Position numbers and translations under genes: made by a program | Assembly: GCA_002269645.1 (NCBI GenBank) | Contig: NIVC01001668.1 | Span: 1 to 64,000 of the forward strand | Length of the DNA: 64,000 nucleotides | Reading direction: 5' to 3' | DNA from: Macrostomum lignano | Lineage: Eukaryota | Notes under the pieces: generated by a model | Seen by the model: the letters and a program-made list of their open reading frames with translations, nothing else | What the model was told of the DNA's origin: nothing | Database searches by the model: none | Shown here: positions 27,326 through 63,026 of the stretch, piece after piece | How the letters are laid out: every line of letters starts with the position of its first letter | Position numbering within the stretch: the stretch's first letter is position 1

Positions 27326-27365
27326 TGAAGTTCTTTGCCATTTTGGCGCAGAAATTGAAAACGGT

Positions 27366-28948
27366 AGTAGTATTATTAAATTACACGCACCCCACATTTT
27401 TACATGTAAAAATGAATATAGTCCCCACCTACACTCGAACTGTAATACGCCTCCGTCAGTTCGAGCTAACGAACGAAACGCAACTCGCCCAAGCCGGCGT
27501 TCGATAAGGTACAAATCTTAGCTTTCTTATCTTAATACGACACACTAACCAACACTAGCGTTCTCCCAAAAGAAATATTGAATTCAAAGTCCAATTCTTC
27601 CTTAGCCTTGGCCATTTATTTCTGCAAAGTATATTTGACTGAATTCGCCGCAAGTCCATACGCATTAAAAACGAGTAAGCAAATTACCGCAATCTAATAC
27701 GCAGATAGTTCATCGCGAAAGAACGCAAACGATTATAACAGCGCTTAAACAGATTCTCGGCGCCACCACCACTAATCATGCTCGCTAGAAAATCCTTCAA
27801 ACCACCACCACGATGCAGTTTAAAGTATAAATAAAACAAAACCCATATACCACAGTGCAGACTTGTTGGTTCTTGAATAGCAAAACGCGAATATTCCCAA
27901 TTTCCCCCTCCACAATTCCGTATAAACCACCGACGTATTAACTCACATGGATTTAACCCCAAGGAATCGAAATACTCTCCCTTCCTAGAGCCCCTCCTAC
28001 CCAACCTAAAACCCCCCACCCATAACAAAACCCAATGAGAACCCGGCAAATTTGAAGTATCGGTATTCACGATCAGAAAATAATGCCTTCTGTCTCTCGG
28101 GATTCGCGGGATACTACTCAACAAATCGACAGGAAAAATACCCAAAAAACAAACGTCTTTAAAACCGTTACATAGAATAATCACAACACGTTGCAAGAAC
28201 AAGTTCGTTACACCTTCGCCTCGCCTCATTTCCAAGCGGTTCCTGGCACAACGTCCCGCAGTTCGGTAATCTGTAGTTGCTTGTCGAAAACACCACCGAA
28301 AATAACGTTATAGACCTCCGCTGTAGCCGTTCCAAAACGCATCTCCAGTCGGACATTCCCTTCCTTATATAATTGTACCGCCGGCGCAACTCCCCCGTCA
28401 GATCCTAACGAATACGCGAGTATCGTATACCCTCCGTTGTAGTCCGCCATCGAGAACCCCAAATCCCGTCCTTGTAAATACAAACCCAGTTGTTGACGCA
28501 GAGTTGTATACTCCTTTGCACAATCCCCTGTGAAGTCGAATTGACTAGGCCGTGTCGGTACCGCCTCACCATTTACGTAAACTCCAACGCTGATCAAATT
28601 CGCATGCACGAAATTGAACGGATTTGTCGCCAGACTTCCATTAAATGCAGTATTTCCAACGACTACCACCAGCAAAAGACGTGGCACTCCGCTCGGAAAC
28701 AGATTTTCGTGCGTATGGCTTAACGACCCTTGCGGTATTGTGAACGTACCCAATGATAAACTGCGATGAGGGTACAAGGCATTATGGGTCTTCAAACCAT
28801 GTGCATGGGCTCCAATCACACTGGCAGATGGCTGAACATACCGCAAACGAAGCTCCGCACTCTGAATCTCAACCTCGTAATCCTTTAACACTGCCTCACC
28901 AATCTGTGCGGCACTTAACACGAATTTGCTCTTTGCCGGTAGTAACTT
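27366..28948. repeat. Left arm of the 1583-bp inverted repeat
   Basis: Reverse complement of 41384-42966; four substitutions found by eye (27419, 27467, 27842, 28370). Confidence 0.95.
27684..28235 (-). CDS. Adenain-like cysteine maturation protease
   Basis: NTD..GSHW, YFDSLG and IQ..SLHCG give the H-D-Q-C catalytic set. Confidence 0.95.
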   Translation of the reverse strand: MEMRRGEGVTNLFLQRVVIILCNGFKDVCFLGIFPVDLLSSIPRIPRDRRHYFLIVNTDTSNLPGSHWVLLWVGGFRLGRRGSRKGEYFDSLGLNPCELIRRWFIRNCGGGNWEYSRFAIQEPTSLHCGIWVLFYLYFKLHRGGGLKDFLASMISGGGAENLFKRCYNRLRSFAMNYLRIRLR

Positions 28949-29548
28949 TATCCGCAAAGGCGTCTTTGACAACAAATACCGTGGCTGACGAAATAGATCC
29001 AAAAACAAAGGCCCTGAAACCGTACAAGTTCTCCCACCCGCAATTAGTGCCTGTCGCTTCACTCGCCCAACGTTCGCGACGCCGGTGGCATTCATTTTTC
29101 CAGCAGTGTCCTTGTAAAATCCCCAGGCAGCCAATCCGCCGTCTTGTCCCAACCGACCATACTCCAAAAGCGTCAGAAGCATGGCCTTGTACGGATACAT
29201 GAAGCTCCCGCCTTCAACGACCGTATCTCCTATCCGCAATTGCACGTCTTCGAACAGCGTACTCACCACCATGTTATTCAGACAGACATAGTTTTTCGCA
29301 GCATCCACAGCCCCTCCACTCTCGTCTACTACTCGGATTCCAACAGTTAGAACTGTTTCTTGTAAGTCGACATACAAATCTCCAGCCGGTACAATCTCGA
29401 ACTCAATTGGCCCTCCTTGCGTAATCCCATGTTGAGGCTGTATATCCGTGTAGCGACTGTCCACAACACTGAATTGTACTGGTGGGCTGTCAAATAACGT
29501 CAACTCACTTTTCAATCCAGCGACGTCAGGCCCCAACAACTGATCCAT
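28226..29548 (-). CDS. Major capsid protein (double jelly-roll, hexon-like)
   Basis: 440 aa; KSELTLFDSPPVQ, GPIEF, VDLQET, LDLFRQPRYL and NPFNF motifs typical of Polinton MCP. Confidence 0.93.
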   Translation of the reverse strand: MDQLLGPDVAGLKSELTLFDSPPVQFSVVDSRYTDIQPQHGITQGGPIEFEIVPAGDLYVDLQETVLTVGIRVVDESGGAVDAAKNYVCLNNMVVSTLFEDVQLRIGDTVVEGGSFMYPYKAMLLTLLEYGRLGQDGGLAAWGFYKDTAGKMNATGVANVGRVKRQALIAGGRTCTVSGPLFLDLFRQPRYLLSKTPLRIKLLPAKSKFVLSAAQIGEAVLKDYEVEIQSAELRLRYVQPSASVIGAHAHGLKTHNALYPHRSLSLGTFTIPQGSLSHTHENLFPSGVPRLLLVVVVGNTAFNGSLATNPFNFVHANLISVGVYVNGEAVPTRPSQFDFTGDCAKEYTTLRQQLGLYLQGRDLGFSMADYNGGYTILAYSLGSDGGVAPAVQLYKEGNVRLEMRFGTATAEVYNVIFGGVFDKQLQITELRDVVPGTAWK

Positions 29549-29941
29549 CTACTTGCCAAACAAACTGAATAACTTTTTAGTCGTGGCGCTCGGCTTTTTC
29601 TTTTTACGTATGCGTCTAACTCGCCGACCACGTCCAACCTGTTTTTTTACCGCAGGTGTCTTTCTGCTTATACCCTTTTTCCTGACTCGTCGTCGCTTAA
29701 CCACAACTGGTCCATCAGTAGTCGTCAATCTACGTTTCTTACCCATTCCAATCGTCTTCTTCAGGAAGCTTAAACCGCCCTCTACTAAATCCTTCCGAGC
29801 TCTACGTAGCACGGGATATATCACTCTCTCTGTTAAATTCGTCAAATATCCGTATCCCTCGTACACAGGTATCGAACTCGACCCACCACCCGTCCGCGGC
29901 TGTGTACTAGGTCCCGAATAGAATGCAAAAACCGGATCCAT
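29549..29941 (-). CDS. Basic Arg/Lys-rich putative core (pVII-like) protein
   Basis: 130 aa; basic C-terminal half; QPRTGGG..PVYEGYG N-terminus; abuts the MCP start. Confidence 0.65.
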   Translation of the reverse strand: MDPVFAFYSGPSTQPRTGGGSSSIPVYEGYGYLTNLTERVIYPVLRRARKDLVEGGLSFLKKTIGMGKKRRLTTTDGPVVVKRRRVRKKGISRKTPAVKKQVGRGRRVRRIRKKKKPSATTKKLFSLFGK

Positions 29942-29970
29942 GAATGCCGAGCGAAACTATACGTCAAAAT

Positions 29971-31113
29971 CTACTTAAAGTGCTTTGCTAATACCCGTGC
30001 TGTCTCTTTATCTAGATCTGATTCAGCCAACCACTGACCTCTCGAGTCGGGCATTCCCTCCCACTTGACAAAATATCGCCTGCCCTTCTTCCCCATACGC
30101 TCAACACGCTCGACCCGATCAATTTTAACAACCTCCGCCTCAGGTTCAGCCACTAGAAGCAGTTCACCTTGGTTGAATCGACCCTCCAACACTGTCGAAT
30201 CGTCCTCGGGGTCTAACAGACCATAAGACGGTGGCTTCGTAGAATACACCCGATGAATTCGATACACCCTATTACTCCATGTCGTTGTGTAACCCTTCTC
30301 AAATTTTCCCTTTTGACGTGCAAGTCGTACCCAATCACCAACCTTAAAACGCGGAATAGGCCTCACATCGTCGCCATACAACTCCTCCCACACCATGCCC
30401 TGCAGATGGCCATCCGCACTCACATCAATGGGGCTACGACCATTTAAACTGCGGTGTGGAGAGTTATTCAACGCAAGCTCTAATTTTGGTAGAACATCAA
30501 ACCACCGGGCCAGATTTCGAGTCCGAAATAGTCGTAGTAATCGCTCCTTCACGGTGCGTATCAATCGCTCAGCCATGCTCGCTTTGTAGGTACTCTGACT
30601 TACGAAAAATCGTACGCCCTCACGCTTTAACATCGACTGAGTTTCTCGCCCAAGAAACTCTCGACCAGCATCGCCTTGTAAGTACAGCGGTTTAAACCCC
30701 GTGCGGAATATCTCATACAATACACGGCTCACCTCACTTGGCTTCTTCGTCTTCAAAGCTCTCAAGCGAGCCAACCTAGTGAAACAGTCGACTAATACGA
30801 GGATGTACCTGTAACCACGGTTTTCGTCCTGATATTGCGGTAAGTCTGCCAAATCAATCTGCATTTGAAATTTTGCAACGGGCGGTAGTTGTATTTTCGG
30901 AGTTTTGAACTTCCGATTCGACTTCTGGAACAGATGTATCTCCTTCGTCCTACGCACCCACTTGTCAACAACAGCCTTGGCTTTTTTTTGCGTTAACTCC
31001 GGATACCTCCGCCTCAAAACTCGTATAAATTGCTTCTTATTACCACTAAACGCAGTAGGGCGTTCCAAGTCGAAAAATGCCACGTCCAGAAACTTAAAAA
31101 AAATCGCTTCCAT
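29971..31113 (-). CDS. Retroviral-type (rve) integrase with C-terminal chromodomain
   Basis: QIDLAD / QGDAGREF / AERLIRT DDE triad; YFVKWEG..QW chromodomain. Confidence 0.95.
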   Translation of the reverse strand: MEAIFFKFLDVAFFDLERPTAFSGNKKQFIRVLRRRYPELTQKKAKAVVDKWVRRTKEIHLFQKSNRKFKTPKIQLPPVAKFQMQIDLADLPQYQDENRGYRYILVLVDCFTRLARLRALKTKKPSEVSRVLYEIFRTGFKPLYLQGDAGREFLGRETQSMLKREGVRFFVSQSTYKASMAERLIRTVKERLLRLFRTRNLARWFDVLPKLELALNNSPHRSLNGRSPIDVSADGHLQGMVWEELYGDDVRPIPRFKVGDWVRLARQKGKFEKGYTTTWSNRVYRIHRVYSTKPPSYGLLDPEDDSTVLEGRFNQGELLLVAEPEAEVVKIDRVERVERMGKKGRRYFVKWEGMPDSRGQWLAESDLDKETARVLAKHFK

Positions 31114-31140
31114 CCTCCGTATTAGCGGCTCTCCAAATTT

Positions 31141-31314
31141 TTATGATGCAGAACCCACATTAGTATTGCAACAGTTAAAACTTGCCTTTACCGTTACGTC
31201 TCCGTCAGGCTCCTCTGCGCGCAGTACGCGTTCCAATAAATTCGCAATGCAACCACCCTCCCCCAAAAAACAAATTCTAAAACGCTTGTACAACCACTGA
31301 AACACATTCGCCAT
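31141..31314 (-). CDS. Small 57-aa ORF (MANVFQWLYKRFRICFLG...NCCNTNVGSAS), unknown function
   Basis: ATG-to-TAA ORF filling the gap between neighbouring co-oriented genes; below the ORF-track cutoff. Confidence 0.45.
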   Translation of the reverse strand: MANVFQWLYKRFRICFLGEGGCIANLLERVLRAEEPDGDVTVKASFNCCNTNVGSAS

Positions 31315-31357
31315 CCCCAGACTCGATATATTTCACGTAAAATACAATGCTTATACA

Positions 31358-32029
31358 TTACGCTAGAGTCTCATAATCTTCCAAGGCTTGCAAGTCCCCA
31401 CCGCGCGACTCTGACTCGGGAGTAGGTTCCATGGGTGTTCCTTCCTCCAGAACGTTTCGCATATGCCGCCCTAGCATCGACGGTGGAATTGATTCCCTGC
31501 GAAGCAGTGAGACGAAACGTTCCAGCTCTGCCGCCGGAGGCGATCTCCCTCGTTTCAATGGTTGGTCGCGAGTGACATACTCTACTAGCTCGTCAAAATC
31601 TCCTCCTCCAATCTCATTCGCAGCACCTGTCAGCCTTGCCTTCAGACGGTCGAAACGTGGTTGTACATTACGGGGGAGTCGCCTCCCCTTCTCGGTCTCA
31701 CCCTCCGTCGGGCCATCATGACCAACGGATGAGCGAACCTCTGGCGGGGTCTCACCATTCTTATTGTACAGAGACCGCGTTTGTAGCAACCGACTCTCCA
31801 AATCAGTTCTTTCCAACTGTGCGGTTGTAGGCTGCAGACTAGTCGATTCACCAATCTCCCGGTCAAGCCTATTCATCTCACCTTGCATTTCAACAATATT
31901 CTTACCCAAAGCGTCCACAGGTCCGTCCAATACTCCCGTCCTTCGCTCATCTTTCGCCGTACATTCCAAATAAGCCTGCAACGGCAGCAAAACCATTCGC
32001 TGAAGAGTTCCTCCTCTATTGACTGGCAT
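31358..32029 (-). CDS. Hypothetical Polinton protein (223 aa, coiled-coil N-terminal half)
   Basis: Co-oriented, tightly packed ORF with ATG; no motif recognised. Confidence 0.75.
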   Translation of the reverse strand: MPVNRGGTLQRMVLLPLQAYLECTAKDERRTGVLDGPVDALGKNIVEMQGEMNRLDREIGESTSLQPTTAQLERTDLESRLLQTRSLYNKNGETPPEVRSSVGHDGPTEGETEKGRRLPRNVQPRFDRLKARLTGAANEIGGGDFDELVEYVTRDQPLKRGRSPPAAELERFVSLLRRESIPPSMLGRHMRNVLEEGTPMEPTPESESRGGDLQALEDYETLA

Positions 32030-32030
32030 A

Positions 32031-32468
32031 TTACCTACGCCGTCCGGCCCGAATTGCTCGAACTAGATTTGCCGTCCCCGCAGCCGTACCGGCCAATCCC
32101 GATGTAATCCCTAGAGCCGTGCCAATGGCTGGCAAAGCAGAAATTATCGGAGCAAGAAACGGCAGGAAACCACCACGCTGTACCAAAATTTCCTTCCTGG
32201 CTCTAGTTGATTTTTTCTCCTTCAACAATTCTTGTATCGGTTTCCGATAGCGTTCTAAACGTTTCTTGTCACACGACTTTAACGGCACGCGTCCTTTTAC
32301 GATATTCAAAAGAAACTCAACCAGGCAACGCACCTCGCCCGGACTTAAACTTCGCAGAAATCGCTTGCGCTGGTCCAATCCCCGAAGCCTCGCGACAACT
32401 TGCAATAGGAAGGCACACTGGGACAATGATCGCGCGCTTTGTACGCTCTTTTCTGTCAGCCCGGTCAT
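32031..32468 (-). CDS. Putative virion protein with an adenovirus pX/Mu-like hydrophobic C-terminus
   Basis: QRGG-FLPFLAPIISALPAIG resembles the adenovirus pX segment MRGG-ILPLLIPLIAAAIG. Confidence 0.65.
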   Translation of the reverse strand: MTGLTEKSVQSARSLSQCAFLLQVVARLRGLDQRKRFLRSLSPGEVRCLVEFLLNIVKGRVPLKSCDKKRLERYRKPIQELLKEKKSTRARKEILVQRGGFLPFLAPIISALPAIGTALGITSGLAGTAAGTANLVRAIRAGRRR

Positions 32469-32512
32469 TGTCTATCATGCCTTCTACTGATTCCGACTGT
32501 ACTTGCTTATAA

Positions 32513-33469
32513 TCAATCGTCTCGTACCCTGAAGTGCAGCACAGCAATCACATGGCTTCCATCAGGGAAATTCAAATCTTGCCCCCGTTGGTCGGCCAGA
32601 CGAATGGAGATCTCATTAATGTAGCTCCGATTTGTCCGCAAGTAATATGGCGTCTGCAAAGCATTTCCGTCTCGTCGAAATATTCCGTTCTTTTCCTGGC
32701 GAAACTCAACCACGCGAAGTAGCGGAACCTGACGACTTCCAACCATTTGATATTCAACAATGTCGCTATAGCAGTACATGTAAACACTCCGCAGTATCGC
32801 TTCGGGTATTCTATCCAAATAGACCTTCGTCAGACCCCACGCACGATTTTTCCTCCAATACTCAACCACCTCCTTTAACGTATCCCCGGCAGGCCGTATT
32901 ACCTGCGTACTCTTCATCCAGACGGCGAAACCAGGTTCCAAGACAGCACGAAAATCGTACCAATTCGAATCTAATATACCTGCCTCGTCCATTGCATTCG
33001 TTATGTTCGTCCAGGATTCACCCGCCGCATCCGCGGGTTGGGTGCGTCCGTCGTGAGCTGTCAAACCCCACGTACTGAAACCAAAGCATGTCAAAAAACT
33101 CCTTGGCAGTTCAATGCCCATACGTCGGCTGCCGGAATTTCGCAAATACCAAACATATGCTTTAGTAGCCGGCGTCCACGACAAGTGTACCTCCAAATCA
33201 TCGGCCTGCCAGACCTTACCCAAGAAGACTTCATCTGTTTTCTCGATAATTTTCTCGATGTTGCAATAATATATCACCTTCACCTCTTCTCGAAGTTCCG
33301 CCGAGGAAGTTTCCGCCGGCGGGCTGTTACATAGCAAATCCACCAAAGCCACTTCATACTTCCCAGCCGGCGCTAGATTCAATGGTGTAGTTAGCCGCAC
33401 CCGAAACTCGTGCGCAGAATTGGTCGGATAACTACGATCGTTTGACGGAATAAACACAAAGAAACTCAT
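32513..33469 (-). CDS. Minor capsid protein (penton-like)
   Basis: PSN...N....FRVRL..PL.L...YEVAL N-terminus; YCYSDIV..Q.VG...VPLLRVV and I.IRL.DQ.G C-terminus. Confidence 0.88.
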   Translation of the reverse strand: MSFFVFIPSNDRSYPTNSAHEFRVRLTTPLNLAPAGKYEVALVDLLCNSPPAETSSAELREEVKVIYYCNIEKIIEKTDEVFLGKVWQADDLEVHLSWTPATKAYVWYLRNSGSRRMGIELPRSFLTCFGFSTWGLTAHDGRTQPADAAGESWTNITNAMDEAGILDSNWYDFRAVLEPGFAVWMKSTQVIRPAGDTLKEVVEYWRKNRAWGLTKVYLDRIPEAILRSVYMYCYSDIVEYQMVGSRQVPLLRVVEFRQEKNGIFRRDGNALQTPYYLRTNRSYINEISIRLADQRGQDLNFPDGSHVIAVLHFRVRDD

Positions 33470-33499
33470 AATCTCACCCCATAAGCTGTAGCCGCTTCC

Positions 33500-34213
33500 T
33501 CAAAACTTGCTTATAATATCCTCCTCCTTGATAGTCTCCGGACGCATATAAACAACCTGGTGAGTGTCACTCGGAAAGACATTCGTCCGTATGCGTATCA
33601 TATCCGGCGTGTCCTGTCGTAAGTCTATGAAGAGATAGCTGAAGGCCTTGTCACCCGTCGCGTCGTCATAAGCCTGCACCAGAAATCTACTAGCTCGGGG
33701 GTACATCTGCCGACCCAAATGTTCAACGGCGCTACGATCCCTAACATTTCGGCTTAAACAGATATAACTCGTCGATAAACTTCTTTTTCTTGCCTCAGGA
33801 TCCGCAGGGTCAAACAAATTTTGGCACAAATAAAGACAAGTCAATGGCGTATGATGAGCCAATTTGGTGAATACAGCGGTAAAAGCGCGTTGCTTTGCAA
33901 CTTCACCCTGCAAATCATCAACAACGACTAAATCGTGCGGCTTGAATCTAGCCAACAACTGATCGGGGAATCCCTGTACGAAGTGACATTCGCCACTTCC
34001 ACCCAATGTCCAACATTCTCGAACTCGTTTTTCCTCAGACGAATGTAACTCTGTACCGTGACACCAAATTAGACGCCTTGGTACTACTCGAAACAGACCC
34101 AAGCGCTCCCTTACCAGTCGAAGCACCCATTCAGTCTTTCCCGAATTCGAAGGACCTGCGACGATAAACGTCGAGTCATGAGCAAATCGCAAGTCGAATG
34201 TACGCCTGTCCAT
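33500..34213 (-). CDS. FtsK/A32-like packaging ATPase
   Basis: Walker A GPSNSGKT, Walker B VVVDD, LCQNLF and Q.YP motifs; first ATG at 34213. Confidence 0.93.
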   Translation of the reverse strand: MDRRTFDLRFAHDSTFIVAGPSNSGKTEWVLRLVRERLGLFRVVPRRLIWCHGTELHSSEEKRVRECWTLGGSGECHFVQGFPDQLLARFKPHDLVVVDDLQGEVAKQRAFTAVFTKLAHHTPLTCLYLCQNLFDPADPEARKRSLSTSYICLSRNVRDRSAVEHLGRQMYPRASRFLVQAYDDATGDKAFSYLFIDLRQDTPDMIRIRTNVFPSDTHQVVYMRPETIKEEDIISKF

Positions 34214-34214
34214 T

Positions 34215-34670
34215 CTAGGCACCCAAACGCTGTTTTACGTTCATAACACGGGATACCAGTTTTGCGGCCAAACGTTCCCCCCACTTAGTTGTAGGATCCG
34301 CAGCAATCTCTCGAGCTCCTGCTTCGAGTTGTTGATCGGCCTTTGAACGCTCTGCCACGTCCGAGTGCTTCTCGTATGCCAGGTCGTGTAAGAGACACAA
34401 TTTATCGAGCCGATTCTTCCCAGTATCGCCCCGCGCTAAACGTTCTCTCAATCTGGTCCCGGGGCCGCAGAATTGGTAACCCCCCGGCAAATGAAGCTCC
34501 CCTGGGAGATGATTTATTACCCAATTAACAATACCAAACCCCGTCTGACCTCGACGACGAGATTTCTTAGCTCGAGTCGACTTTGCTGCTGTCGAACGCA
34601 CTCGCTTCTTCTTCTTCTGTCGGCCTTGTGTTCCCATCCCACTTAATTGTACCAAAAGAACCAATTGCAT
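34215..34670 (-). CDS. Parvovirus-type phospholipase A2 domain protein (PLA2X)
   Basis: YQFCGPG Ca-binding loop, LDKLCLLHDLAY (HD), downstream AD; basic N-terminus; first ATG at 34670. Confidence 0.9.
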   Translation of the reverse strand: MQLVLLVQLSGMGTQGRQKKKKRVRSTAAKSTRAKKSRRRGQTGFGIVNWVINHLPGELHLPGGYQFCGPGTRLRERLARGDTGKNRLDKLCLLHDLAYEKHSDVAERSKADQQLEAGAREIAADPTTKWGERLAAKLVSRVMNVKQRLGA

Positions 34671-34783
34671 TTGCTTATACACACAGTGGTTAAATCCACG
34701 AGCAGTATATTGTATTAATAATCAAAGTGACAAGCCGCCACCAATTCCCACCACCGACCGACGGGCTCCGGGCGTGACCAGCA

Positions 34784-35401
34784 TCACATGTTAGTGCTGC
34801 CCATGCCACCCGTCTCGCGAACCGCCACCGGCTCCGGTTGTCGGTGCCACACCCCCGGCAGCTGGCCCTCGCGAGCTCGACCGACTTCTACCGGGGGCGT
34901 GACGCAGCGCTCCAGAATCAATTGGGCCACGCTGGTGGCACACGACAGATGAACTTTCTCATCTGACGTGTTGTGCAGGATCACGCGGAGTTCCCCGGTA
35001 TAGTCCGGGTCAACCACGCCACCCTGCACATTTAGGCCTCGGTTGGCCCAACTGGACCGGCTCGCTATCCGACCATAGGTGCCCGGCGGCAGCATCACCC
35101 GGAGGCCGGTGCGAATGATGGCCGTGTCAAAGGCTTCCACAGTGCGGTCTTCGCACGTGGCTAGGTCGTAGCCCACCGACCCGGCCGTAGCTCGCCGAGG
35201 CATCACTGCCCCGGCATCCGTGAGCACTACGCGCAGCGGGACCGTCGAGCAAGAGTCGGAGCTCATAGTGGCTGCGGGATCATAGTTCATCTTATGCTTA
35301 GGAGGTTCTTCGTCCTCTAAAATAAGTCTAGTACTACCCGCGTAATCCTCGTCCCAATCAAAAAAACTAAGCCTAGTACTAATCCCCTGCACTGCCATCA
35401 T
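34784..35401 (-). CDS. dut: dUTPase with acidic N-terminal extension
   Basis: Five motifs: VGYDL, GRIASRSS, GVVDPDYTGE, VAQLI and RETGGMGST; ATG 4 nt after a strong polypyrimidine-AG. Confidence 0.92.
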   Translation of the reverse strand: MMAVQGISTRLSFFDWDEDYAGSTRLILEDEEPPKHKMNYDPAATMSSDSCSTVPLRVVLTDAGAVMPRRATAGSVGYDLATCEDRTVEAFDTAIIRTGLRVMLPPGTYGRIASRSSWANRGLNVQGGVVDPDYTGELRVILHNTSDEKVHLSCATSVAQLILERCVTPPVEVGRAREGQLPGVWHRQPEPVAVRETGGMGSTNM

Positions 35402-35526
35402 AGGCCTAGAAAAACGAAGAGAAAGAAGGAAAGGCGGATTCTTGCATATACATTCGATAATTGCGCGCATATATTGTGTGCAGAAAAAGCATAAACAGAC
35501 AGAAAACAGAGAGCGGAGAGAACAAG

Positions 35527-38500
35527 TCAAGTCAACCGCCAATGACCAAATGGGAGGGATGAGTAGGGATCGAGCCAGGCTCGCTTCGTGTCGAAGAAGC
35601 TAAGCGCCTGCTTGCGCTGCTCAAGAAGATAAATCTTCTGTCGTCGCGAAGTAATCGTCCGCATCGTTACATGCTCCAAAACTCGATCCTTCAACACACT
35701 CAAAAATACATTGTGCTTCATACCTCTTACAATCGACTTCGACACGCCCTTGCAACGCACAATCTGACAGAGGCTTTCCTTTGCATACACCATTGAATAG
35801 TTTTTCGGGCGTAGAAATGCAAACTCCAACAGTGTACAACCGGAAACTTCATCTTTCCAGGCCATTAACTTCCCTTTATACTTTGTTGTATAAAGCGGAT
35901 GAGAAGGTGGATAATTACTAGTGTCTAACACACCGCACTCCACCAAGTCTTTAAACAATGTCTCCTGAGGACTCGTCTCCGGGTCGGCCATAACCAATGC
36001 CAGGATCAAACTATCCGTATCTCCACCAAGCACGCGGGCAGAAGCAAGCGACCTATGGCATTGAATCCTTGAATAGAAAAACTCGTAGACAAATGTTTTC
36101 GCAAGGTCCAGAATAGCGCTACCAATCAGAATTGGCTTGTTTAGCAATACTCGACGAGGAGTCAAACTCACGCCCGCTAGACGATCTGTATACAGAATCA
36201 CGTCCATAAACTCCTCTTTAGCGACATACGTTTCCAACTTCTCGGCAGTAGTACACATGCGATAGCTGAGTCGGTCTCGAACTCGCTGCAGAAACTTGCC
36301 GTACACAGCATTGTTCAATAGTTTAAAGAAATCTCGATCGAAATCGCTAGTCGCCTCAGACCGCCGACGAATATTATGTTCAATATATTCCTGTAGAATA
36401 GGACCTTCTACGAATTCGAGAACACGATTAACCCGCGTCACGCGCATGCCTAACTCGAGGTAAAGACGCAATGCTCGATGATGTACAATGTACCCTGTTT
36501 TATGCGTAACAGAGCCAATTAGTTTCCTTGTCGGAGAAGTGAATCGTTTTACGTCCTCGTATACCTCCGCATTCCTCTTCCTGGGATCAAGCTGGCGTTG
36601 CAGACAAACCCAATCCTGCTTCATATGCTCGGTTAAATAGGCACTATCAATTCTTTCATGGCCAATAGCCAGAGGTAGATCGGCAGTTGAGTCGTGCAAA
36701 AACTTTGGGTAGTAAAGATCGACATTCAATAACGCCCCTCGTCCATTCGAGCAATAGCTAGACAACCAAGCCAAAAACTTGCTCGACTTGTTCGGATTTT
36801 CCAACTCAGCTGCCTCATCATCAACTGATAGATTTTCAATCACTTCACGGGGCAACCAACGATAGGCCTTATACGGCAGCGCCTGCACCATACAACTGGC
36901 ATAAAGAGAATTAGCATCAAGGTAGGCCAAGTGAGTGCCATACGGTGCATTCCGCCGTAGTTCTCTTAAATTGTCGTCGTCGTCATCCAGCTGCCGACGA
37001 CATTCTTCTACCATTGGATTATTTGCCGTAGTAAGATGGCGAGTGCCAAAACTGAACCCACCTCGAATCGAAGCTTCAACCTCGGAGTACATACGAGCGT
37101 CTGTAAACAACTCGATCGGCTTCTTCACCTTCAACAGACACGCAGCCAGACTATACATTGGCGATCCGAGAAAATGACACACATCCAAACCGTATTCTCG
37201 AATTGCAGTCCGACGAAAACTCTCAAATACGTCGCATAACAGTAGTACATCCAACAGTAAATACGCAGTCAGATAGTCACGCAAATTGGCACAATCAAAC
37301 TCTTGCCAACTCTGCTGAGCGCGTGTGTACTCCTCCTTAGAACACTCTTGCCGGGTCATTGCGTCGTAAAACAAATCTCGCGATGGCAGTTCAGTCACAC
37401 TGTCCAACTTCTCTTCAGAGTCCAAGTAACAATACGGAAACACTCCCTTCTGCTGCAGAGTAGACAGTTGGAGTTTAGGATAAACATTCAGCAAATCTCG
37501 ACAGTGTACCAATTGTTCCTGCGTCAAACGGTTTGCCAGACTAGCTAGACTTGTCGACAAGTACGCAAACGTGTCCTTGAAGCAGATTTCAAACCAAACA
37601 AAATTCTTCTTCTTCTGCTTTTGTTGCTGCGGCCGTTGACTGCCAACCAGCAGCGGTACCTTGAACTTTAATGAAAACGTCTTAAACCGTTCCCTAGACT
37701 CGGGAAGAACGTGCAGTTGAACGTCGTCTTCTCCACTAAACACATTGTACACCTCACGAACAATTATTTTACCGTCATATCCTCGAAGATTGTGCAGGTA
37801 GACGATAATTCGATAGCGCTGCAGGGCAAGTTTTCGATTGCACGACATGCAAGCCATTCCACGTGGAAGACCACTCAAATGACAATGATCCCAGACTTGA
37901 GACTCGTCAGCGGAAAACTCGCGACGACAGACGTAGCATCGATCTGTGCTAGGACGCTGACCTAGATACTTTCTAAGCATTGGTCTATAAGTCATCTTGC
38001 TAGTCGCATTAGTTACTTCGAATGCAAGCTCGCGCAGAGCCAAGAGAAACCTGCCAATACAATCTGTTGTGCCAGGCGTAGAATAAAACAACTTGCATGG
38101 AGTATTGTATCTGCTCAACAAATCCTCCCTCGTTACACTATCCAAATCCGGATCGACAACCAAACGAAAGGCCACACAAACGGGCACGTGAATTTGTAAA
38201 ACATGGCTGTTAGCCGTAGGCACTGGCAGGCCCTTGACGAGGCCCCCCGATGCCTTTTCAACAGGTACAAGTAGACTCTCAATATCAGCATAAACCAAAT
38301 ACAGCGGCGGCAGTCGAGTCTCGTAGGCTGAAAAAGACAAAAATGCTTTGCCCTCCTCTGGTAAAACCTCCTCCGTGACTGGCTTTGGCGTTCGAATGAA
38401 GCCGCCGCCGCCGCCGCCGCCTGGTTGCTCCTCCGTCGTCTGGCCACACACGTGTTCTTTCAAGATATAATCCCAAGACGTGGTGTGAATAAAGCTCGCC

Positions 38501-39975
38501 AGACATTCAGGACAATAGCGCCGGCGTTTAGCACGAGAACTCAACAGCCTATCCAGATTTAGCACCGCCATGTAGTGTCCATACTTGAATTCTGCGTAAG
38601 GTGGTATGAACAGACAATTGACTGGCGCAAGGTCACCAGTGGAACGACGAAAATTAAAAAACAGCACGGCAGTATTCGTGGCATGACTCCAGACAAACAC
38701 ACGCATCAGTCTAATTCGAGGGTTCAGCCGGCAAAACTTTCTGTAGCTCCCAATTGAGTGACGAGTCACTCCGGCGCGCGTAAATCGAAAGCTTTTCAGC
38801 CAAGGCCTGTAAGACGCCTTTCGCCTTTTACGGGCTTGCCCTTCGACCTGTGAGGAAAAGACGCTCGACACGACAGCATACATAAAACAATCATGCTGAT
38901 CTGCTCGGTGCGGGCGTAGAAACAAAACCGCTCCCGGCATACGACCAACAGCCAGTGGAACGCGGAATGGAACGGAACGGGTCGGAGCGGATTCTGTTGG
39001 ACCGCCGCCCGCCTGCGCGCCCGCCGCCGCCGCCGCCACGCCCGCCGCCACCACCACCGCCGCCCCGCCACCCGCTCCCCACACGTCCTGCTGCTGCTGC
39101 CGACGACTGCTAGTGTTCGACTGTAGTAGTAGATATTTTCGGCGGAATATGCACAGCATAACGTCGACCTTGACAACGCCGAGGAACTTCCAGTTACTAC
39201 CTCGGGACTGAAAGTTGTCTAATTTAGCTACCAGATCGTTTGTTGTCTCGCTGTACCATTGGTTGAAAACGTCCTCAGAGAGAAGAAGTACACGGCGGCC
39301 GGCGGCTGGAGCATTCGCATCGAAGGAGACCATAACGACTTTGGAATTGAAGAAGGGCGCGATTACTTCTACCTCTTCGTTGTGGGGGGATTCACCAGCA
39401 GCCGTGTCATTGGCGGGGGGATAACGGGTACGATACATTTTTACATTAAGATGTATACATGTACGGAGTAAACAGTCCGCAGATCCGAGAGAGTTAAAAA
39501 GACGAAAAACTGGAACTTGCAGTTGTGGAAGTAACTCGCTGGGTGGTTCGGTATCGCCATCGTCCTCGTCCAGCAGAGGCGTGAACGTCAGAAAGTTCGC
39601 CCGACCTCGGTGTGCGGACTCGGTATGTTGTACCGACCAGCCTGGTGGAGTGTCCTCTTCGATTAGCCGACGCACTGGTTCTCGAAGTAAAAGTTGGTCT
39701 GGTTGATAGCACGAGCCATTGTGCGAGTGCCCATGGAGGGCGGCTTGACTGTTGAATCTCTGCCGGCACACGGGGCATCTGATTTGTTTCGTCGTCGTCG
39801 TCGACGGCTGGAATGGTGTTGGCGATTGTTGGCGACGGGGTGGTTGTGATAATCGCCTAAATAGTTTGCTCGGTGGTAAAAATAAGGAAGGAATGCACAG
39901 CCTTAAGTTTGGTGGACAGTCCAAAAATGTCCTCCGCCGCGTGGTTAAACTGTATTTTACTTTGCAGAGATACAA
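35527..39975 (-). CDS. polB: Protein-primed family B DNA polymerase with N-terminal Zn finger, terminal-protein/vOTU region and endonuclease-VII insertion
   Basis: YADIES exonuclease motif, DHCH..G..RG..C..CN EndoVII, DANSLY, KLLNNAVYGK, GGDTDS, RPKNY; ORF starts at TTG and the first ATG is codon 180. Confidence 0.97.
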   Translation of the reverse strand: MYLCKVKYSLTTRRRTFLDCPPNLRLCIPSLFLPPSKLFRRLSQPPRRQQSPTPFQPSTTTTKQIRCPVCRQRFNSQAALHGHSHNGSCYQPDQLLLREPVRRLIEEDTPPGWSVQHTESAHRGRANFLTFTPLLDEDDGDTEPPSELLPQLQVPVFRLFNSLGSADCLLRTCIHLNVKMYRTRYPPANDTAAGESPHNEEVEVIAPFFNSKVVMVSFDANAPAAGRRVLLLSEDVFNQWYSETTNDLVAKLDNFQSRGSNWKFLGVVKVDVMLCIFRRKYLLLQSNTSSRRQQQQDVWGAGGGAAVVVAAGVAAAAAGAQAGGGPTESAPTRSVPFRVPLAVGRMPGAVLFLRPHRADQHDCFMYAVVSSVFSSQVEGQARKRRKASYRPWLKSFRFTRAGVTRHSIGSYRKFCRLNPRIRLMRVFVWSHATNTAVLFFNFRRSTGDLAPVNCLFIPPYAEFKYGHYMAVLNLDRLLSSRAKRRRYCPECLASFIHTTSWDYILKEHVCGQTTEEQPGGGGGGGFIRTPKPVTEEVLPEEGKAFLSFSAYETRLPPLYLVYADIESLLVPVEKASGGLVKGLPVPTANSHVLQIHVPVCVAFRLVVDPDLDSVTREDLLSRYNTPCKLFYSTPGTTDCIGRFLLALRELAFEVTNATSKMTYRPMLRKYLGQRPSTDRCYVCRREFSADESQVWDHCHLSGLPRGMACMSCNRKLALQRYRIIVYLHNLRGYDGKIIVREVYNVFSGEDDVQLHVLPESRERFKTFSLKFKVPLLVGSQRPQQQKQKKKNFVWFEICFKDTFAYLSTSLASLANRLTQEQLVHCRDLLNVYPKLQLSTLQQKGVFPYCYLDSEEKLDSVTELPSRDLFYDAMTRQECSKEEYTRAQQSWQEFDCANLRDYLTAYLLLDVLLLCDVFESFRRTAIREYGLDVCHFLGSPMYSLAACLLKVKKPIELFTDARMYSEVEASIRGGFSFGTRHLTTANNPMVEECRRQLDDDDDNLRELRRNAPYGTHLAYLDANSLYASCMVQALPYKAYRWLPREVIENLSVDDEAAELENPNKSSKFLAWLSSYCSNGRGALLNVDLYYPKFLHDSTADLPLAIGHERIDSAYLTEHMKQDWVCLQRQLDPRKRNAEVYEDVKRFTSPTRKLIGSVTHKTGYIVHHRALRLYLELGMRVTRVNRVLEFVEGPILQEYIEHNIRRRSEATSDFDRDFFKLLNNAVYGKFLQRVRDRLSYRMCTTAEKLETYVAKEEFMDVILYTDRLAGVSLTPRRVLLNKPILIGSAILDLAKTFVYEFFYSRIQCHRSLASARVLGGDTDSLILALVMADPETSPQETLFKDLVECGVLDTSNYPPSHPLYTTKYKGKLMAWKDEVSGCTLLEFAFLRPKNYSMVYAKESLCQIVRCKGVSKSIVRGMKHNVFLSVLKDRVLEHVTMRTITSRRQKIYLLEQRKQALSFFDTKRAWLDPYSSLPFGHWRLT

Positions 39976-40268
39976 TTATGTAGACAATTTGAATATTTAG
40001 GAATGAACAGCAGGCTAGTAAGTAGTAGGTCGTTGATGGTGGTTGAAAGAATAGAATCGTATAACTTAGTCAATGGTAGTGTTTTTAGGGGTCTGAATCA
40101 GTTCGAATGGATCATCATGATAAACAAAAATCGTTGGGTACGCATGGGAATTTTACCTTCAGGTAGTAATAGTGGTAGGTGGTGTTTTTTCAACTTGGTA
40201 GGGGCTCGGTTGAATTTAGGTGTTTATTACTACAGCAGAAAATCGTTGTTGTTAATATCAAGTGCATG

Positions 40269-41069
40269 TCAGAGCTCACGACGAATGATGCCGCCAACAA
40301 GATGGGCTAGATCGGTCGTAGATGTATCCGATCTGATTAGAATTTCGTGTACGTTCGAGTAGTCCTGGTAGTGTCGTGTAAACGCCTCGTCTAGCGATCG
40401 TAGATAGTCCAGGGAGATGCCAGTCTCCTCACCGCTGCGTCCGCGCTGCGCGATGCGTTGAATGGCCAACTCCGGGTCAATGCGCAGGTAAATAAGCGTC
40501 GTGTTCGCGCCGGTAAAGGGTACCCCAGTCGCTTCGAGGACGTCTAGTTGGCGCTGAGCAATCGCCCATTCGGTGTCAGACAGCGAGCCTTGACGGTGTA
40601 GTACGTCTTGGAATGCTCGAGCCGACCCGAGGCAGCGGTCGAGGATAACCACCTTGTTGTTGGATTGTTGGTTAACCTCATTCCGGACCTGGGTGGTAAC
40701 ACAAGATTGGCAAAAGTAGCTATACCGTGCGTGTCTTTCGACATTGGTTGTACATGCAGTAGGAGCTATACGAAAGGAATTGCTAGATACTATAGTACCA
40801 CTTACTTTGCTGTCTCTGTCGAGCAAGTCGTGGGAGACGTGCTGTTGGAATGCGACGGCCGGAAGCTCGCCTCGATAGAATGACTGAAGCAGATTTACCG
40901 AGTCCGGGAGGAGCGGGTGTCGCGCGTACTGGTGAACAGGCTCGGGACCGAAGACGGCTTTGTCGGCCCAACCCTCGAGGCGGGAGGTGAGAGCCAGTTC
41001 TCGAAGCAACGTCGACTTCCCGGCACCGATTACGCCCTCCAGGAGAAAAATGCGAGACTGGCTCGTCAT
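40269..41069 (-). CDS. Deoxynucleoside kinase (dNK family) with a probable intron at 40689-40805
   Basis: LEGVIGAGKST P-loop, PEPV, ILDRCLGS, IYLR..PE....RI..RGR..E lid, YL..L...F. Confidence 0.88.
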   Translation of the reverse strand: MTSQSRIFLLEGVIGAGKSTLLRELALTSRLEGWADKAVFGPEPVHQYARHPLLPDSVNLLQSFYRGELPAVAFQQHVSHDLLDRDSKVSGTIVSSNSFRIAPTACTTNVERHARYSYFCQSCVTTQVRNEVNQQSNNKVVILDRCLGSARAFQDVLHRQGSLSDTEWAIAQRQLDVLEATGVPFTGANTTLIYLRIDPELAIQRIAQRGRSGEETGISLDYLRSLDEAFTRHYQDYSNVHEILIRSDTSTTDLAHLVGGIIRREL

Positions 41070-41114
41070 ATTGGCTAGAATTGGAACAAATTCTGGTTTC
41101 GGAGCGGCTTCCTG

Positions 41115-41383
41115 ACACAATTGTTTAACAATGTTGATCATTTCTAAAATCTGGCTAGTAGTCTTTGCACCTATTATAACGATCTTAAGGGAAAGAAAAA
41201 TATTGCACACCGTCCTATTGAGTGGAGCAGTACTACGGAGGGTGATGGCTTGTGGGAATATCTCCGCGTCGTAATACAGCCGAGCTGTGTGAAACGGCCC
41301 GATAAATTTTTTCAGGGTCGAAAATTTGAGTCCAGGATAGTGGAGCAGACCAACGGTTGTAGAGCTGATTATACGAATCGATG
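41115..41383 (-). CDS. TATA-binding-protein-like repeat, 5'-truncated, in frame with the dNK
   Basis: YDAEIFPQAITLR...TVCNIFLSLKIVIIGAKT aligns by eye with TBP YEPELFPGLIYR...LLIFVSGKIVITGAK. Confidence 0.65.
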
Positions 41384-42106
41384 AAGTTACTACCGGCAAA
41401 GAGCAAATTCGTGTTAAGTGCCGCACAGATTGGTGAGGCAGTGTTAAAGGATTACGAGGTTGAGATTCAGAGTGCGGAGCTTCGTTTGCGGTATGTTCAG
41501 CCATCTGCCAGTGTGATTGGAGCCCATGCACATGGTTTGAAGACCCATAATGCCTTGTACCCTCATCGCAGTTTATCATTGGGTACGTTCACAATACCGC
41601 AAGGGTCGTTAAGCCATACGCACGAAAATCTGTTTCCGAGCGGAGTGCCACGTCTTTTGCTGGTGGTAGTCGTTGGAAATACTGCATTTAATGGAAGTCT
41701 GGCGACAAATCCGTTCAATTTCGTGCATGCGAATTTGATCAGCGTTGGAGTTTACGTAAATGGTGAGGCGGTACCGACACGGCCTAGTCAATTCGACTTC
41801 ACAGGGGATTGTGCAAAGGAGTATACAACTCTGCGTCAACAACTGGGTTTGTATTTACAAGGACGGGATTTGGGGTTCTCGATGGCGGACTACAACGGAG
41901 GGTATACGATACTCGCGTATTCGTTAGGATCTGACGGGGGAGTTGCGCCGGCGGTACAATTGTATAAGGAAGGGAATGTCCGACTGGAGATGCGTTTTGG
42001 AACGGCTACAGCGGAGGTCTATAACGTTATTTTCGGTGGTGTTTTCGACAAGCAACTACAGATTACCGAACTGCGGGACGTTGTGCCAGGAACCGCTTGG
42101 AAATGA
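41381..42106 (+). pseudogene. Duplicated C-terminal 241 aa of the major capsid protein
   Basis: Protein identical to the MCP C-terminal half; ATG formed at the repeat junction. Confidence 0.8.
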
Positions 42107-42966
42107 GGCGAGGCGAAGGTGTAACGAACTTGTTCTTGCAACGTGTTGTGATTATTCTATGTAACGGTTTTAAAGACGTTTGTTTTTTGGGTATTTTTCC
42201 TGTCGATTTGTTGAGTAGTATCCCGCGAATCCCGAGAGACAGAAGGCATTATTTTCTGATCGTGAATACCGATACTTCAAATTTGCCGGGTTCTCATTGG
42301 GTTTTGTTATGGGTGGGGGGTTTTAGGTTGGGTAGGAGGGGCTCTAGGAAGGGAGAGTATTTCGATTCCTTGGGGTTAAATCCATGTGAGTTAATACGTC
42401 GGTGGTTTATACGGAATTGTGGAGGGGGAAATTGGGAATATTCGCGTTTTGCTATTCAAGAACCAACAAGTCTGCACTGTGGTATATGGATTTTGTTTTA
42501 TTTATACTTTAAACTGCATCGTGGTGGTGGTTTGAAGGATTTTCTGGCGAGCATGATTAGTGGTGGTGGCGCCGAGAATCTGTTTAAGCGCTGTTATAAT
42601 CGTTTGCGTTCTTTCGCGATGAACTATCTGCGTATTAGATTGCGGTAATTTGCTTACTCGTTTTTAATGCGTATGGACTTGCGGCGAATTCAGTCAAATA
42701 TACTTTGCAGAAATAAATGGCCAAGGCTAAGGAAGAATTGGACTTTGAATTCAATATTTCTTTTGGGAGAACGCTAGTGTTGGTTAGTGTGTCGTATTAA
42801 GATAAGAAAGCTAAGATTTGTACCTTATCGAACGCCGGCTTGGGCGAGTTGCGTTTCGTTCGTTGGCTCGAACTGACGGAGGCGTATTACAGTTCGAGTG
42901 TAGGTGGGGACTGTATTCATTTTTACATGTAAAAATGTGGGGTGCGTGTAATTTAATAATACTACT
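41384..42966. repeat. Right arm of the 1583-bp inverted repeat
   Basis: Ends ...aataatACTACT; coordinates mirror the left arm exactly. Confidence 0.95.
42097..42648 (+). CDS. Second full copy of the adenain-like protease (one V/I difference)
   Basis: Identical to 27684-28235 except WVL vs WIL. Confidence 0.9.
   Translation: MEMRRGEGVTNLFLQRVVIILCNGFKDVCFLGIFPVDLLSSIPRIPRDRRHYFLIVNTDTSNLPGSHWVLLWVGGFRLGRRGSRKGEYFDSLGLNPCELIRRWFIRNCGGGNWEYSRFAIQEPTSLHCGIWILFYLYFKLHRGGGLKDFLASMISGGGAENLFKRCYNRLRSFAMNYLRIRLR

Positions 42967-43879: not shown

Positions 43880-63026
<19,147 letters not shown>

What the first reader, a model, noticed from the sequence alone, without database searches (positions are those of the whole stretch)
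27366..42966. Intact-looking endogenous Polinton/adintovirus with its own nucleotide-metabolism and transcription-factor module
Seen: every core ORF (adenain, MCP, penton, ATPase, integrase, PolB, PLA2) is uninterrupted and keeps its catalytic residues; all genes lie on one strand, often abutting or overlapping. Beyond the core there is a dUTPase, a deoxynucleoside kinase and a TBP-like domain, clustered around PolB. Known: the animal Polinton core is PolB/INT/ATPase/PRO/MCP/mCP plus a few small virion proteins; dUTPase, dNK and TBP are typical of larger DNA viruses. Inference: a possibly still-active virus lineage with a replication-support module for dNTP supply and transcription initiation.
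Basis: partly seen in the sequence, partly recalled or inferred. Interest (0 to 1): 0.85.

Follow-up and report, generated by a model that had tools for sequence, protein, structure and literature searches.

The report
Flatworm Polintons with own TATA-binding protein
Virus-like Polinton elements in a flatworm genome carry their own divergent TATA-binding protein in a spliced block of replication genes, and two element lineages with different versions of this protein have different DNA boxes in front of their capsid genes, so the elements likely run their own early-to-late gene switch on the host's RNA polymerase; the copy in this window is a truncated, rearranged one.

Summary
The element is a real Polinton; its proteins match database entries named Macrostomum lignano (flatworm). 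Core ORFs, dUTPase and dNK are open. The copy is not intact: a 1.6-kb inverted copy of the left end replaces about 6 kb of right arm and cuts the TBP gene in half. Seven sister copies carry the full arm: a giant-virus-type ssDNA-binding protein (SSB), then a two-repeat TBP (fold confirmed), dNK and PolB. Contigs of probable RNA runs show splicing, including SSB-to-TBP; TBP and most PolBs lack their own ATG and start at conserved splice acceptors. TBP is under purifying selection and present in every sampled family of this clade, and a second, distant Polinton clade has its own TBP. Late genes carry TATAAGC in clade A (27 sense sites, about 2 expected, none antisense or early) and TTAAGAA in clade B (26 sense, 0 antisense), with no cross-use. 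Best reading: an element-encoded TBP drives late transcription; binding is untested. Ten literature searches found no animal Polinton TBP, but this scan noted Polinton TBPs with a TATAAAC box in other genomes. dUTPase and ssDNA-binding labels already appear in published adintovirus maps.

The parts
27360..27365 (+). 6-bp target site AACGGT of a different insertion (assembly mis-join; its partner is the right flank of G000:C297)
   Evidence: empty site in C532, 100% identical
27366..27429 (.). true terminal inverted repeat, ~64 bp, begins AGTAGTA
27684..28229 (-). adenain-like cysteine protease (His, Asp, Gln, Cys motifs read by eye)
   Evidence: no Pfam hit
28226..29548 (-). major capsid protein candidate, 440 aa
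   Evidence: 65-75% identity within clade A, ~30% to clade B and to metagenome contigs where it sits beside a protease; no Pfam or PDB sequence hit
29549..29941 (-). 130-aa basic protein (putative virion core protein); contains a TATAAGC site at 29672
29971..31113 (-). retrovirus-like integrase with C-terminal chromodomain
31141..31314 (-).
31358..32029 (-). 223-aa conserved ORF of unknown function
32031..32468 (-). 145-aa protein with adenovirus pX-like C-terminus; TATAAGC box 43 nt upstream (32511)
   Evidence: E 1e-4, below cut-off
32513..33469 (-). minor capsid (penton) candidate; TATAAGC box 46 nt upstream (33515)
   Evidence: no Pfam hit
33500..34213 (-). A32/FtsK-like packaging ATPase (Walker A and B present)
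   Evidence: weak
34215..34670 (-). PLA2-like virion protein; TATAAGC box at 34679, ~42 nt before the second ATG
34784..35470 (-). dUTPase, five motifs present by eye
   Evidence: 1e-26
35527..39807 (-). protein-primed PolB, 1,426 codons from a conserved splice acceptor (TTCCAG): zinc finger, OTU-like Cys/His, endonuclease VII-like insert, exonuclease and polymerase motifs
40269..41069 (-). deoxynucleoside kinase with own ATG behind a splice acceptor and a 117-nt in-frame intron (40689-40805)
   Evidence: (3 of 3 probable RNA runs, not the DNA run)
41070..41383 (-). second repeat of the TBP gene, in frame with dNK; first repeat, acceptor, SSB and early promoter deleted in this copy
41380..41383 (.). 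rearrangement junction with 3-nt microhomology (ATC) between TBP and MCP
41384..42966 (+). inverted duplicate of the left end (3' half of MCP, whole protease, terminus) replacing ~6.1 kb of right arm
42967..42972 (+). 6-bp target site AGTGTC; its partner is the left flank of G000:C356
   Evidence: empty sites in C282, C1592

Best explanation
This is a rearranged copy of a young flatworm Polinton family whose full-length members carry a spliced block of SSB, TBP, dNK and PolB genes followed by capsid-region genes that share a non-canonical TATAAGC box, and the element's TBP likely binds that box and likely recruits host RNA polymerase II to switch on late genes. Shown: gene identities and order, SSB and TBP folds, splicing, conservation, box enrichment, and a different box in a second clade with a different TBP. 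Inferred: (1) host TFIID starts the early unit at an ordinary TATA box ~100 nt before the SSB ATG; (2) alternative splicing from a conserved donor in the SSB tail, or the host spliced leader ending in AUG, supplies the start codon that TBP and PolB lack; (3) SSB, PolB, dNK and dUTPase support protein-primed strand-displacement replication and dNTP supply; (4) the viral TBP, with no viral polymerase or recognised TFIIB, redirects host Pol II to late genes; (5) the window copy arose by a template switch during replication and was then integrated, so it would need a full-length helper.
For: TBP: full two-repeat match to PDB TBPs, E 7e-9; Pfam TBP in 8 of 9 members; model pLDDT 93; Foldseek to human TBP TM 0.75 at 17% identity. 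Second-repeat Phe pair and stirrup Glu invariant in 9 of 9; first repeat altered to YP.G, a change shared with clade B and a third type. dN/dS about 0.14 (TBP), 0.10 (dNK), 0.11 (SSB exon 1) for one family pair, 0.20-0.25 for three clade-B TBP pairs. SSB: best fold match ASFV CP312R, Z 12.2, rmsd 4.2 over 183 residues, then Enc34 SSB and T7 gp2.5, Z 7.7; Atlas neighbours DUF2738/DUF5871/Pox_I3. Splicing: canonical introns in contigs of X11, X12, X16 and none in DNA run X9; SSB-to-TBP joint in X12. GTRAG donor at the same SSB position and phase-0 AG before TBP in 7 of 8 copies scanned (not found in C3805); TTCCAG before the PolB zinc finger in 4 of 5 families, with an ATG there in the fifth. 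Box: TATAAGC 27 late-sense, 0 late-antisense, 0 early in 5 families, 2.1 expected in late regions; clade B TTAAGAA 26 sense, 0 antisense in 5 copies, ~3 expected, no TATAAGC; clade A late regions have 0 sense TTAAGAA. Spacing to the ATG is 41-55 nt for penton, pX, PLA2 and the small ORF in most families. Rearranged copy: target sites pair C356-left with window-right, empty sites join those flanks, and the window's first 7,136 aligned nt have 0 mismatches to C356.
Against: No binding, promoter or start-site data. The boxes were found and counted on the same copies; C2529 and C889 share nearly the same capsid module (MCP dS 0.07), so clade A gives 4 independent points, and the 5 clade-B copies are related. 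One recurring site lies inside the 130-aa gene in the same reading frame (Ile-Ser), so protein constraint could explain it. ATPase, p223 and protease have no box within 100 nt in most families. In clade B the TBP gene itself sits behind the box in 4 of 4 copies shown, which does not fit a simple early-then-late order. The C1975 SSB promoter reads TATAAGG, close to the late box. The SSB-to-TBP joint is in 1 of 3 probable RNA runs at depth 5; no joint into PolB and no spliced-leader end was among the rows shown; the runs' RNA status is a guess. The SSB model has pLDDT only 60. The TBP tree has only 3 cellular rows and long branches meet. No TFIIB-like gene was looked for by family search.
Confidence: 0.6

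Rival explanations
1. The boxes are read by host TFIID/TRF or by a helper virus, and the viral TBP is a decoy that binds host TFIIB or TBP regulators to dampen host transcription.
For: TATAAG is close to a canonical TATA box, and wild-type TBP has been crystallised on TATA variants (entry titles). The first-repeat Phe pair is altered while the acidic stirrup is kept. Both boxes share a TAAG core, which resembles a baculovirus late motif (recalled).
Against: The box changes with the TBP lineage in the same host, with no cross-use; clade B's TTAAGAA lacks TATA; no helper virus was seen.
Confidence: 0.2
2. The SSB-TBP fusion acts in replication, bending or marking the AT-rich termini or coupling late transcription to replicating DNA, rather than as a free promoter factor.
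For: In clade A TBP has no ATG and the only observed route to it is splicing from the SSB tail; it lies between SSB and PolB; the right terminus of C297 contains TATAAAA.
Against: Clade-B TBP is a free protein with its own ATG in the capsid cassette; the boxes lie before late genes, not at termini.
Confidence: 0.12
3. The 1.6-kb inverted end and TBP truncation are an assembly artefact, and every real copy is full length.
For: The assembly demonstrably swaps flanks among these copies: 0 of 3 contigs with both ends have matching target sites. The junction is in 1 of 8 copies. No read across it was examined.
Against: The AGTGTC site has a left-type end on both sides and its flanks join in two empty sites; the inverted arm has 3 private variants and differs from the left arm at 5 positions, so it is not a mirrored read; the junction has microhomology.
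Confidence: 0.12
4. The accessory genes are passengers recently captured from the host with no role in the element.
For: dNK is absent from one family and its in-frame fusion to TBP is limited to the window's family.
Against: Purifying selection, fixed position across families at 45-60% PolB identity, 17-28% identity to cellular TBPs, element TBPs on one side of the tree.
Confidence: 0.03

Closest known systems
Polintons/Mavericks; Alpha adintoviruses of Starrett et al. 2021 (PMC8502044; passages, section 3.4 and Suppl. Fig S2 text read)
   Same: pPolB, chromodomain integrase, ATPase, protease, capsid candidates, PLA2-like gene, terminal repeats, 6-bp target duplication. 'dUTPase' and 'SSDBP' labels occur in their adintovirus maps.
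   Different: No TBP or kinase label in the readable supplement text; their TBP label is in the figure of related elements from non-animal datasets. No spliced early unit or late box was seen in the passages read.
TBP-like factors and T7 gp2.5-type SSBs of Nucleocytoviricota (ASFV B263R-like TBP, ASFV CP312R, DUF2738/DUF5871, Pox_I3)
   Same: Same folds; TBP, SSB, dNK and dUTPase together are typical of these viruses (general knowledge).
   Different: Those viruses mostly encode their own RNA polymerase (general knowledge); here none is present, the genome is ~20 kb, integrated and spliced. Identity 6-21%, so the donor is not resolved.
Adenovirus E2 transcription unit (recalled)
   Same: One promoter, ssDNA-binding protein first, polymerase downstream receiving its start codon by splicing.
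   Different: Adenoviral DBP is not an OB-fold SSB (recalled); adenoviruses use host TBP and have no integrase.
Cellular TBP/TRF (PF00352)
   Same: Two-repeat saddle, second-repeat Phe pair, acidic stirrup.
   Different: No N-terminal extension, first repeat altered, 17% identity to human TBP; clade-A form has no start codon of its own.
Polinton TBPs noted earlier in this scan (e1-8072120, e1-7879962, e1-9894833)
   Same: Element-encoded short TBP; a shared box before capsid genes.
   Different: Other genomes, TATAAAC box, some with TFIIB; no look-alike by sequence. Here two TBP/box pairs occur in one host, with SSB, dNK and splicing.

Membership tests
Polinton/Maverick | protein-primed family B polymerase | tested here: met
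   PF03175 3e-20, motifs located
Polinton/Maverick | retrovirus-like integrase | tested here: met
   rve 5e-7 (below cut-off) plus chromodomain; DDE by eye
Polinton/Maverick | terminal inverted repeats starting AG and 6-bp target duplication | tested here: met
   ~64-bp repeat; 5 target sites each found twice; matched within one contig in C2529, C889, C1975
Polinton/Maverick | packaging ATPase and adenovirus-type protease | tested here: met
   Walker motifs and weak Pox_A32 hit; protease catalytic motifs by eye only
Polinton/Maverick | double jelly-roll major and single jelly-roll minor capsid proteins | tested here: inconclusive
   no Pfam or PDB sequence hit; not folded; assigned by size, position and conservation
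Alpha adintovirus | PolB with N-terminal OTU-like domain | tested here: inconclusive
   Cys and His motifs present; no OTU profile hit
Alpha adintovirus | PLA2-like virion gene and chromodomain integrase | tested here: met
   PF08398 1e-8, PF00385 1.5e-5
Alpha adintovirus | hexon reciprocally recognisable by BLASTP with the Mayetiola reference | not tested
   reference sequence not fetched
TBP family | two-repeat saddle fold | tested here: met
   (full-length sister copy; the window keeps one repeat)
TBP family | two DNA-intercalating Phe pairs | tested here: not met
   second-repeat pair invariant; first-repeat pair replaced; residue roles recalled
TBP family | binds TATA-like DNA and TFIIB | not testable with these tools
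   stirrup Glu invariant; no binding test
T7 gp2.5/NCLDV-type SSB | OB fold with acidic C-terminal tail | tested here: met
   Z 12.2 to CP312R; acidic tail in sequences; model pLDDT 60
Deoxynucleoside kinase (PF01712) | P-loop, catalytic Glu, Gln, Arg and LID arginines | tested here: met
   alignment to Drosophila dNK; Pfam 1e-25
Autonomous, replication-competent virus | free linear genomes and virions | not testable with these tools
   only integrated copies and contigs seen

The most novel reading that the evidence does not exclude
Animal Polintons run a complete early-late programme with one captured basal factor: an adenovirus-E2-like spliced early unit makes SSB, TBP, dNK and PolB, the host's spliced-leader AUG or the SSB exon supplies the start codon of polymerase and TBP, and each lineage's TBP has evolved its own promoter code (TATAAGC versus TTAAGAA), giving orthogonal viral transcription circuits inside one host nucleus.
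Probability: 0.4. Interest if true: 0.88.

Novelty: new variant of a known kind. Interest (0 to 1): 0.72.

Why it matters
How Polintons time capsid expression without their own RNA polymerase is open. Two coexisting lineages with different TBPs and mutually exclusive late boxes give a ready swap experiment, in a species for which transgenesis is reported (PMC8629364). If confirmed, it shows TBP specificity can be rewired to non-TATA boxes, links giant-virus TBP/SSB modules to 20-kb integrating elements, and shows that Polinton genes can be missed by ORF callers because they begin at splice acceptors. The swapped flanks also warn that single assembled copies of young elements can mislead.

Tried and rejected
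TBP-dNK fusion as the family's key novelty: rejected as general; it is in frame only in the window's family, dNK has its own ATG and acceptor, and no other fusion appeared among 6 hits (lengths 260-828 only) or the best 150 of 884. Long 1.6-kb terminal repeat as a family trait: rejected. Relatives with context outside the host: TBP patterns found none in viral contigs or metagenomes; MCP patterns found none in viral contigs and 9 short metagenome contigs at 27-40% identity with no TBP or SSB profile hit, too short (1.6-6 kb) to show absence. Exact look-up of 10 proteins, six of them started at the predicted acceptors: 0 of 10 found, uninformative. Spliced-leader ends: none among the 23 loose ends shown, 30 not shown. 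No run was on record as RNA. MCP profile against PDB: no hit. Complex prediction with host TFIIB was not run: a textbook pair, and DNA cannot be included. Origin of dNK and dUTPase was not resolved (no tree built). Literature searches; subscription papers are not covered, and two slide files of the PMC8502044 supplement could not be read and may bear on novelty.
Full report
Observation. The region holds open minus-strand ORFs for the Polinton core plus dUTPase and a TBP-like/dNK ORF. Pfam supports dUTPase, dNK, PolB, PLA2 and the chromodomain well, integrase, ATPase and TBP weakly, and gives nothing for the protease or the two capsid candidates; an MCP profile also finds nothing in PDB, so those names rest on motifs, size, order and conservation. 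The ends form a 1,588-nt inverted repeat containing the whole protease and half the MCP, so not all genes are on one strand.

The copy is rearranged. The TBP/dNK stretch has 8 near-identical matches in G000. All 7 others leave the window sequence at 41383. Four were read to their right ends: they carry a further ~6.1 kb, full length is about 20 kb, and the true terminal repeat is ~64 bp. Five 6-bp target sites each occur twice, but none of the 3 contigs with both ends has a matching pair, so the assembly swaps flanks. Empty sites join the window's left flank to C297's right flank, and C356's left flank to the window's right flank. The window's first 7,136 aligned nt have no mismatch to C356. 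So the AGTGTC insertion has left-type ends on both sides. The junction has 3 nt of microhomology, and the inverted arm differs from the left arm at 5 sites, 2 shared with sister copies. I infer a template switch before integration. No read across the junction was examined.

Host and age. The closest database proteins are named Macrostomum lignano. Young copies differ by 0-86 substitutions over 1.7-20 kb aligned, and one empty site is 100% identical to the flanks, so integration is recent. Sister copies show frameshifts in the assembly; whether these are real was not established.

The full module. In full-length copies the ORF has two TBP repeats in frame with dNK. A profile of 9 such TBPs matches PDB TBPs over the whole core (E 7e-9), 8 of 9 hit Pfam TBP, the model has pLDDT 93 and matches human TBP at TM 0.75, 17% identity and giant-virus TBP-like proteins at 6-21%. 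Upstream lies a two-exon gene whose spliced database form folds (pLDDT 60) like ASFV CP312R (Z 12.2, rmsd 4.2, 183 aligned), Enc34 SSB and T7 gp2.5 (Z 7.7), in line with Atlas neighbours: an SSB. dNK keeps the motifs of Drosophila dNK. The order SSB-TBP-(dNK)-PolB-dUTPase-PLA2-ATPase-penton-pX-p223-integrase-p130-MCP-protease recurs in families with 45-60% PolB identity. dNK is absent from the C84 family; the TBP-dNK fusion is only in the window's family. dN/dS is about 0.14, 0.10 and 0.11 for TBP, dNK and SSB exon 1 between C2529 and C889. Of the best 150 of 884 representative hits, 4 match the TBP part, all unnamed.

Expression and splicing. Twenty of 24 listed runs hold the element; none is on record as RNA. 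Contigs of 4 of them were laid on C362's right 10 kb. Three guessed to be RNA show canonical introns that the DNA run lacks: the SSB intron (3 of 3), a 117-nt in-frame dNK intron (3 of 3) and a joint from the SSB tail to the TBP acceptor (1 of 3, depth 5). The long SSB contigs of X11 and X12 end 65-40 nt downstream of a TATAAAA ~100 nt before the SSB ATG. The SSB donor (GTRAG) and a phase-0 AG directly before TBP's first strand were found in 7 of 8 copies scanned. PolB has TTCCAG in phase 0 before its zinc finger in 4 of 5 families; the fifth has an ATG there. PMC8629364 (parts 1-2 of 4 read) gives a 35-nt spliced leader ending in ATG and a [T/C]TNCAG acceptor motif, so either the leader or the SSB exon could supply the start; both are in frame and my data do not separate them. 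The dNK database model starting right after its acceptor leans towards trans-splicing there. The likeness to adenovirus E2 is recalled.

A second clade and the boxes. A Pfam TBP search gives 330 candidates, 150 scored; 9 of 10 sampled non-host loci lie near a PolB ~30% identical to the window's, mostly in a different layout. Their TBP has its own ATG and is ~28% identical to host TBP. All element TBPs share YP.G in repeat 1 and fall on one side of a tree against 3 cellular rows (98/96, long branches), which suggests but does not show one origin. Earlier notes of this scan reported a TATAAAC box in other genomes and prompted a motif search. In 48 upstream regions of clade-A late genes the top words were TATAAG/ATAAGC. 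TATAAGC occurs 27 times on the sense strand after PolB, never antisense and never in the early part, against 2.1 and 2.6 expected. Clade B has TTAAGAA 26 times sense, 0 antisense, ~3 expected, and no TATAAGC; clade-A late regions have no sense TTAAGAA. Caveats: discovery and test share data, families are not independent, one site may be protein-driven, several late genes lack a nearby box, and clade-B TBP itself sits behind the box.

Mechanism. Most likely (0.6) the early unit is started by host TFIID, the element's TBP then binds the lineage's box and draws host Pol II to late genes. By recalled TBP-DNA geometry the second repeat reads the 5' half of the box and the first repeat the 3' half; here the second-repeat Phe pair and stirrup Glu are invariant and the first repeat is altered, matching TATAAGC's 3' deviation. 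This is inference. Rivals: decoy TBP with host- or helper-read boxes (0.2); replication-coupled SSB-TBP (0.12); passengers (0.03). Separately, the window's rearrangement may be an artefact (0.12).

What is known. PMC8502044 (passages, section 3.4, supplement search and Fig S2 text) and its preprint (passages) list TBP and dUTPase in figures of related elements from non-animal datasets, and dUTPase and SSDBP in adintovirus maps; two slide files were unreadable. PMC11071296 (passages) mentions kinase- and dUTPase-like genes in bidnaviruses. A 2026 preprint on these viruses has none of six terms searched; PMC12220804 had hits only in references. Ten searches (other papers seen as listings only) found no animal Polinton TBP or late box. 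This scan has 39 notes on Polinton TBPs in at least 3 other genomes, none in this genome or similar by sequence.

Verdict. A Polinton by the features tested, a new variant of a known kind. The given copy is defective, but the family-level finding is stronger than reported: SSB-TBP-dNK-PolB spliced early unit and two TBP/box pairs in one host. Interest 0.72.

Noticed in passing
L033:5890-7650 (+), right arm of full-length copies: A gene on the opposite strand with at least 8 short introns, spliced in probable RNA runs X11 and X12; low-complexity product of unknown function.
   Followed up: partly
L033:8791-9201 (-): 128-aa coiled-coil plus hydrophobic-helix ORF near the right end, with a 69-nt intron joint beside it in 3 of 3 probable RNA runs; weak homolog in C1975.
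   Followed up: no
G000:C2529 versus C889: Capsid genes nearly identical (MCP dS 0.07) while TBP, dNK and SSB have dS above 1.2: the early module was swapped between lineages.
   Followed up: partly
G000, genome-wide: Pfam TBP search gives 330 candidates, 150 scored and all over cut-off; 12 rows are host TBP and a TRF-like gene in triplicate; 9 of 10 sampled other loci lie near a Polinton PolB.
   Followed up: partly
L083:4992-5849: Clade B has a 285-aa ORF with an exonuclease-like DxQG motif (by eye; no Pfam hit) overlapping its TBP gene.
   Followed up: no
L093:5388-5984: A third TBP type (C1769) near ATPase- and pX-like remnants, also with the YP.G first repeat.
   Followed up: partly
P0011 and P0039: A dNK and a TBP from unnamed Logan contigs with the same count and length (2 contigs, longest 4,232), so probably adjacent separate genes in another sample.
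   Followed up: no
P0009: The NCBI model of the window family's dNK is 5'-partial and starts one codon before the ATG, two bases after the AG acceptor, as expected if its transcript begins there after leader trimming.
   Followed up: partly
window:25505-25879 (+) and 43880-43960 (+): Host flanks: a Ras-family coding stretch (Pfam 1e-28) and an exon resembling a phosphatidylinositol transfer protein start (recalled); they come from different insertion sites.
   Followed up: no
G000:C1637, C105, C322: Internally deleted copies bounded by terminal motifs or lacking most of the middle occur in sister families.
   Followed up: no
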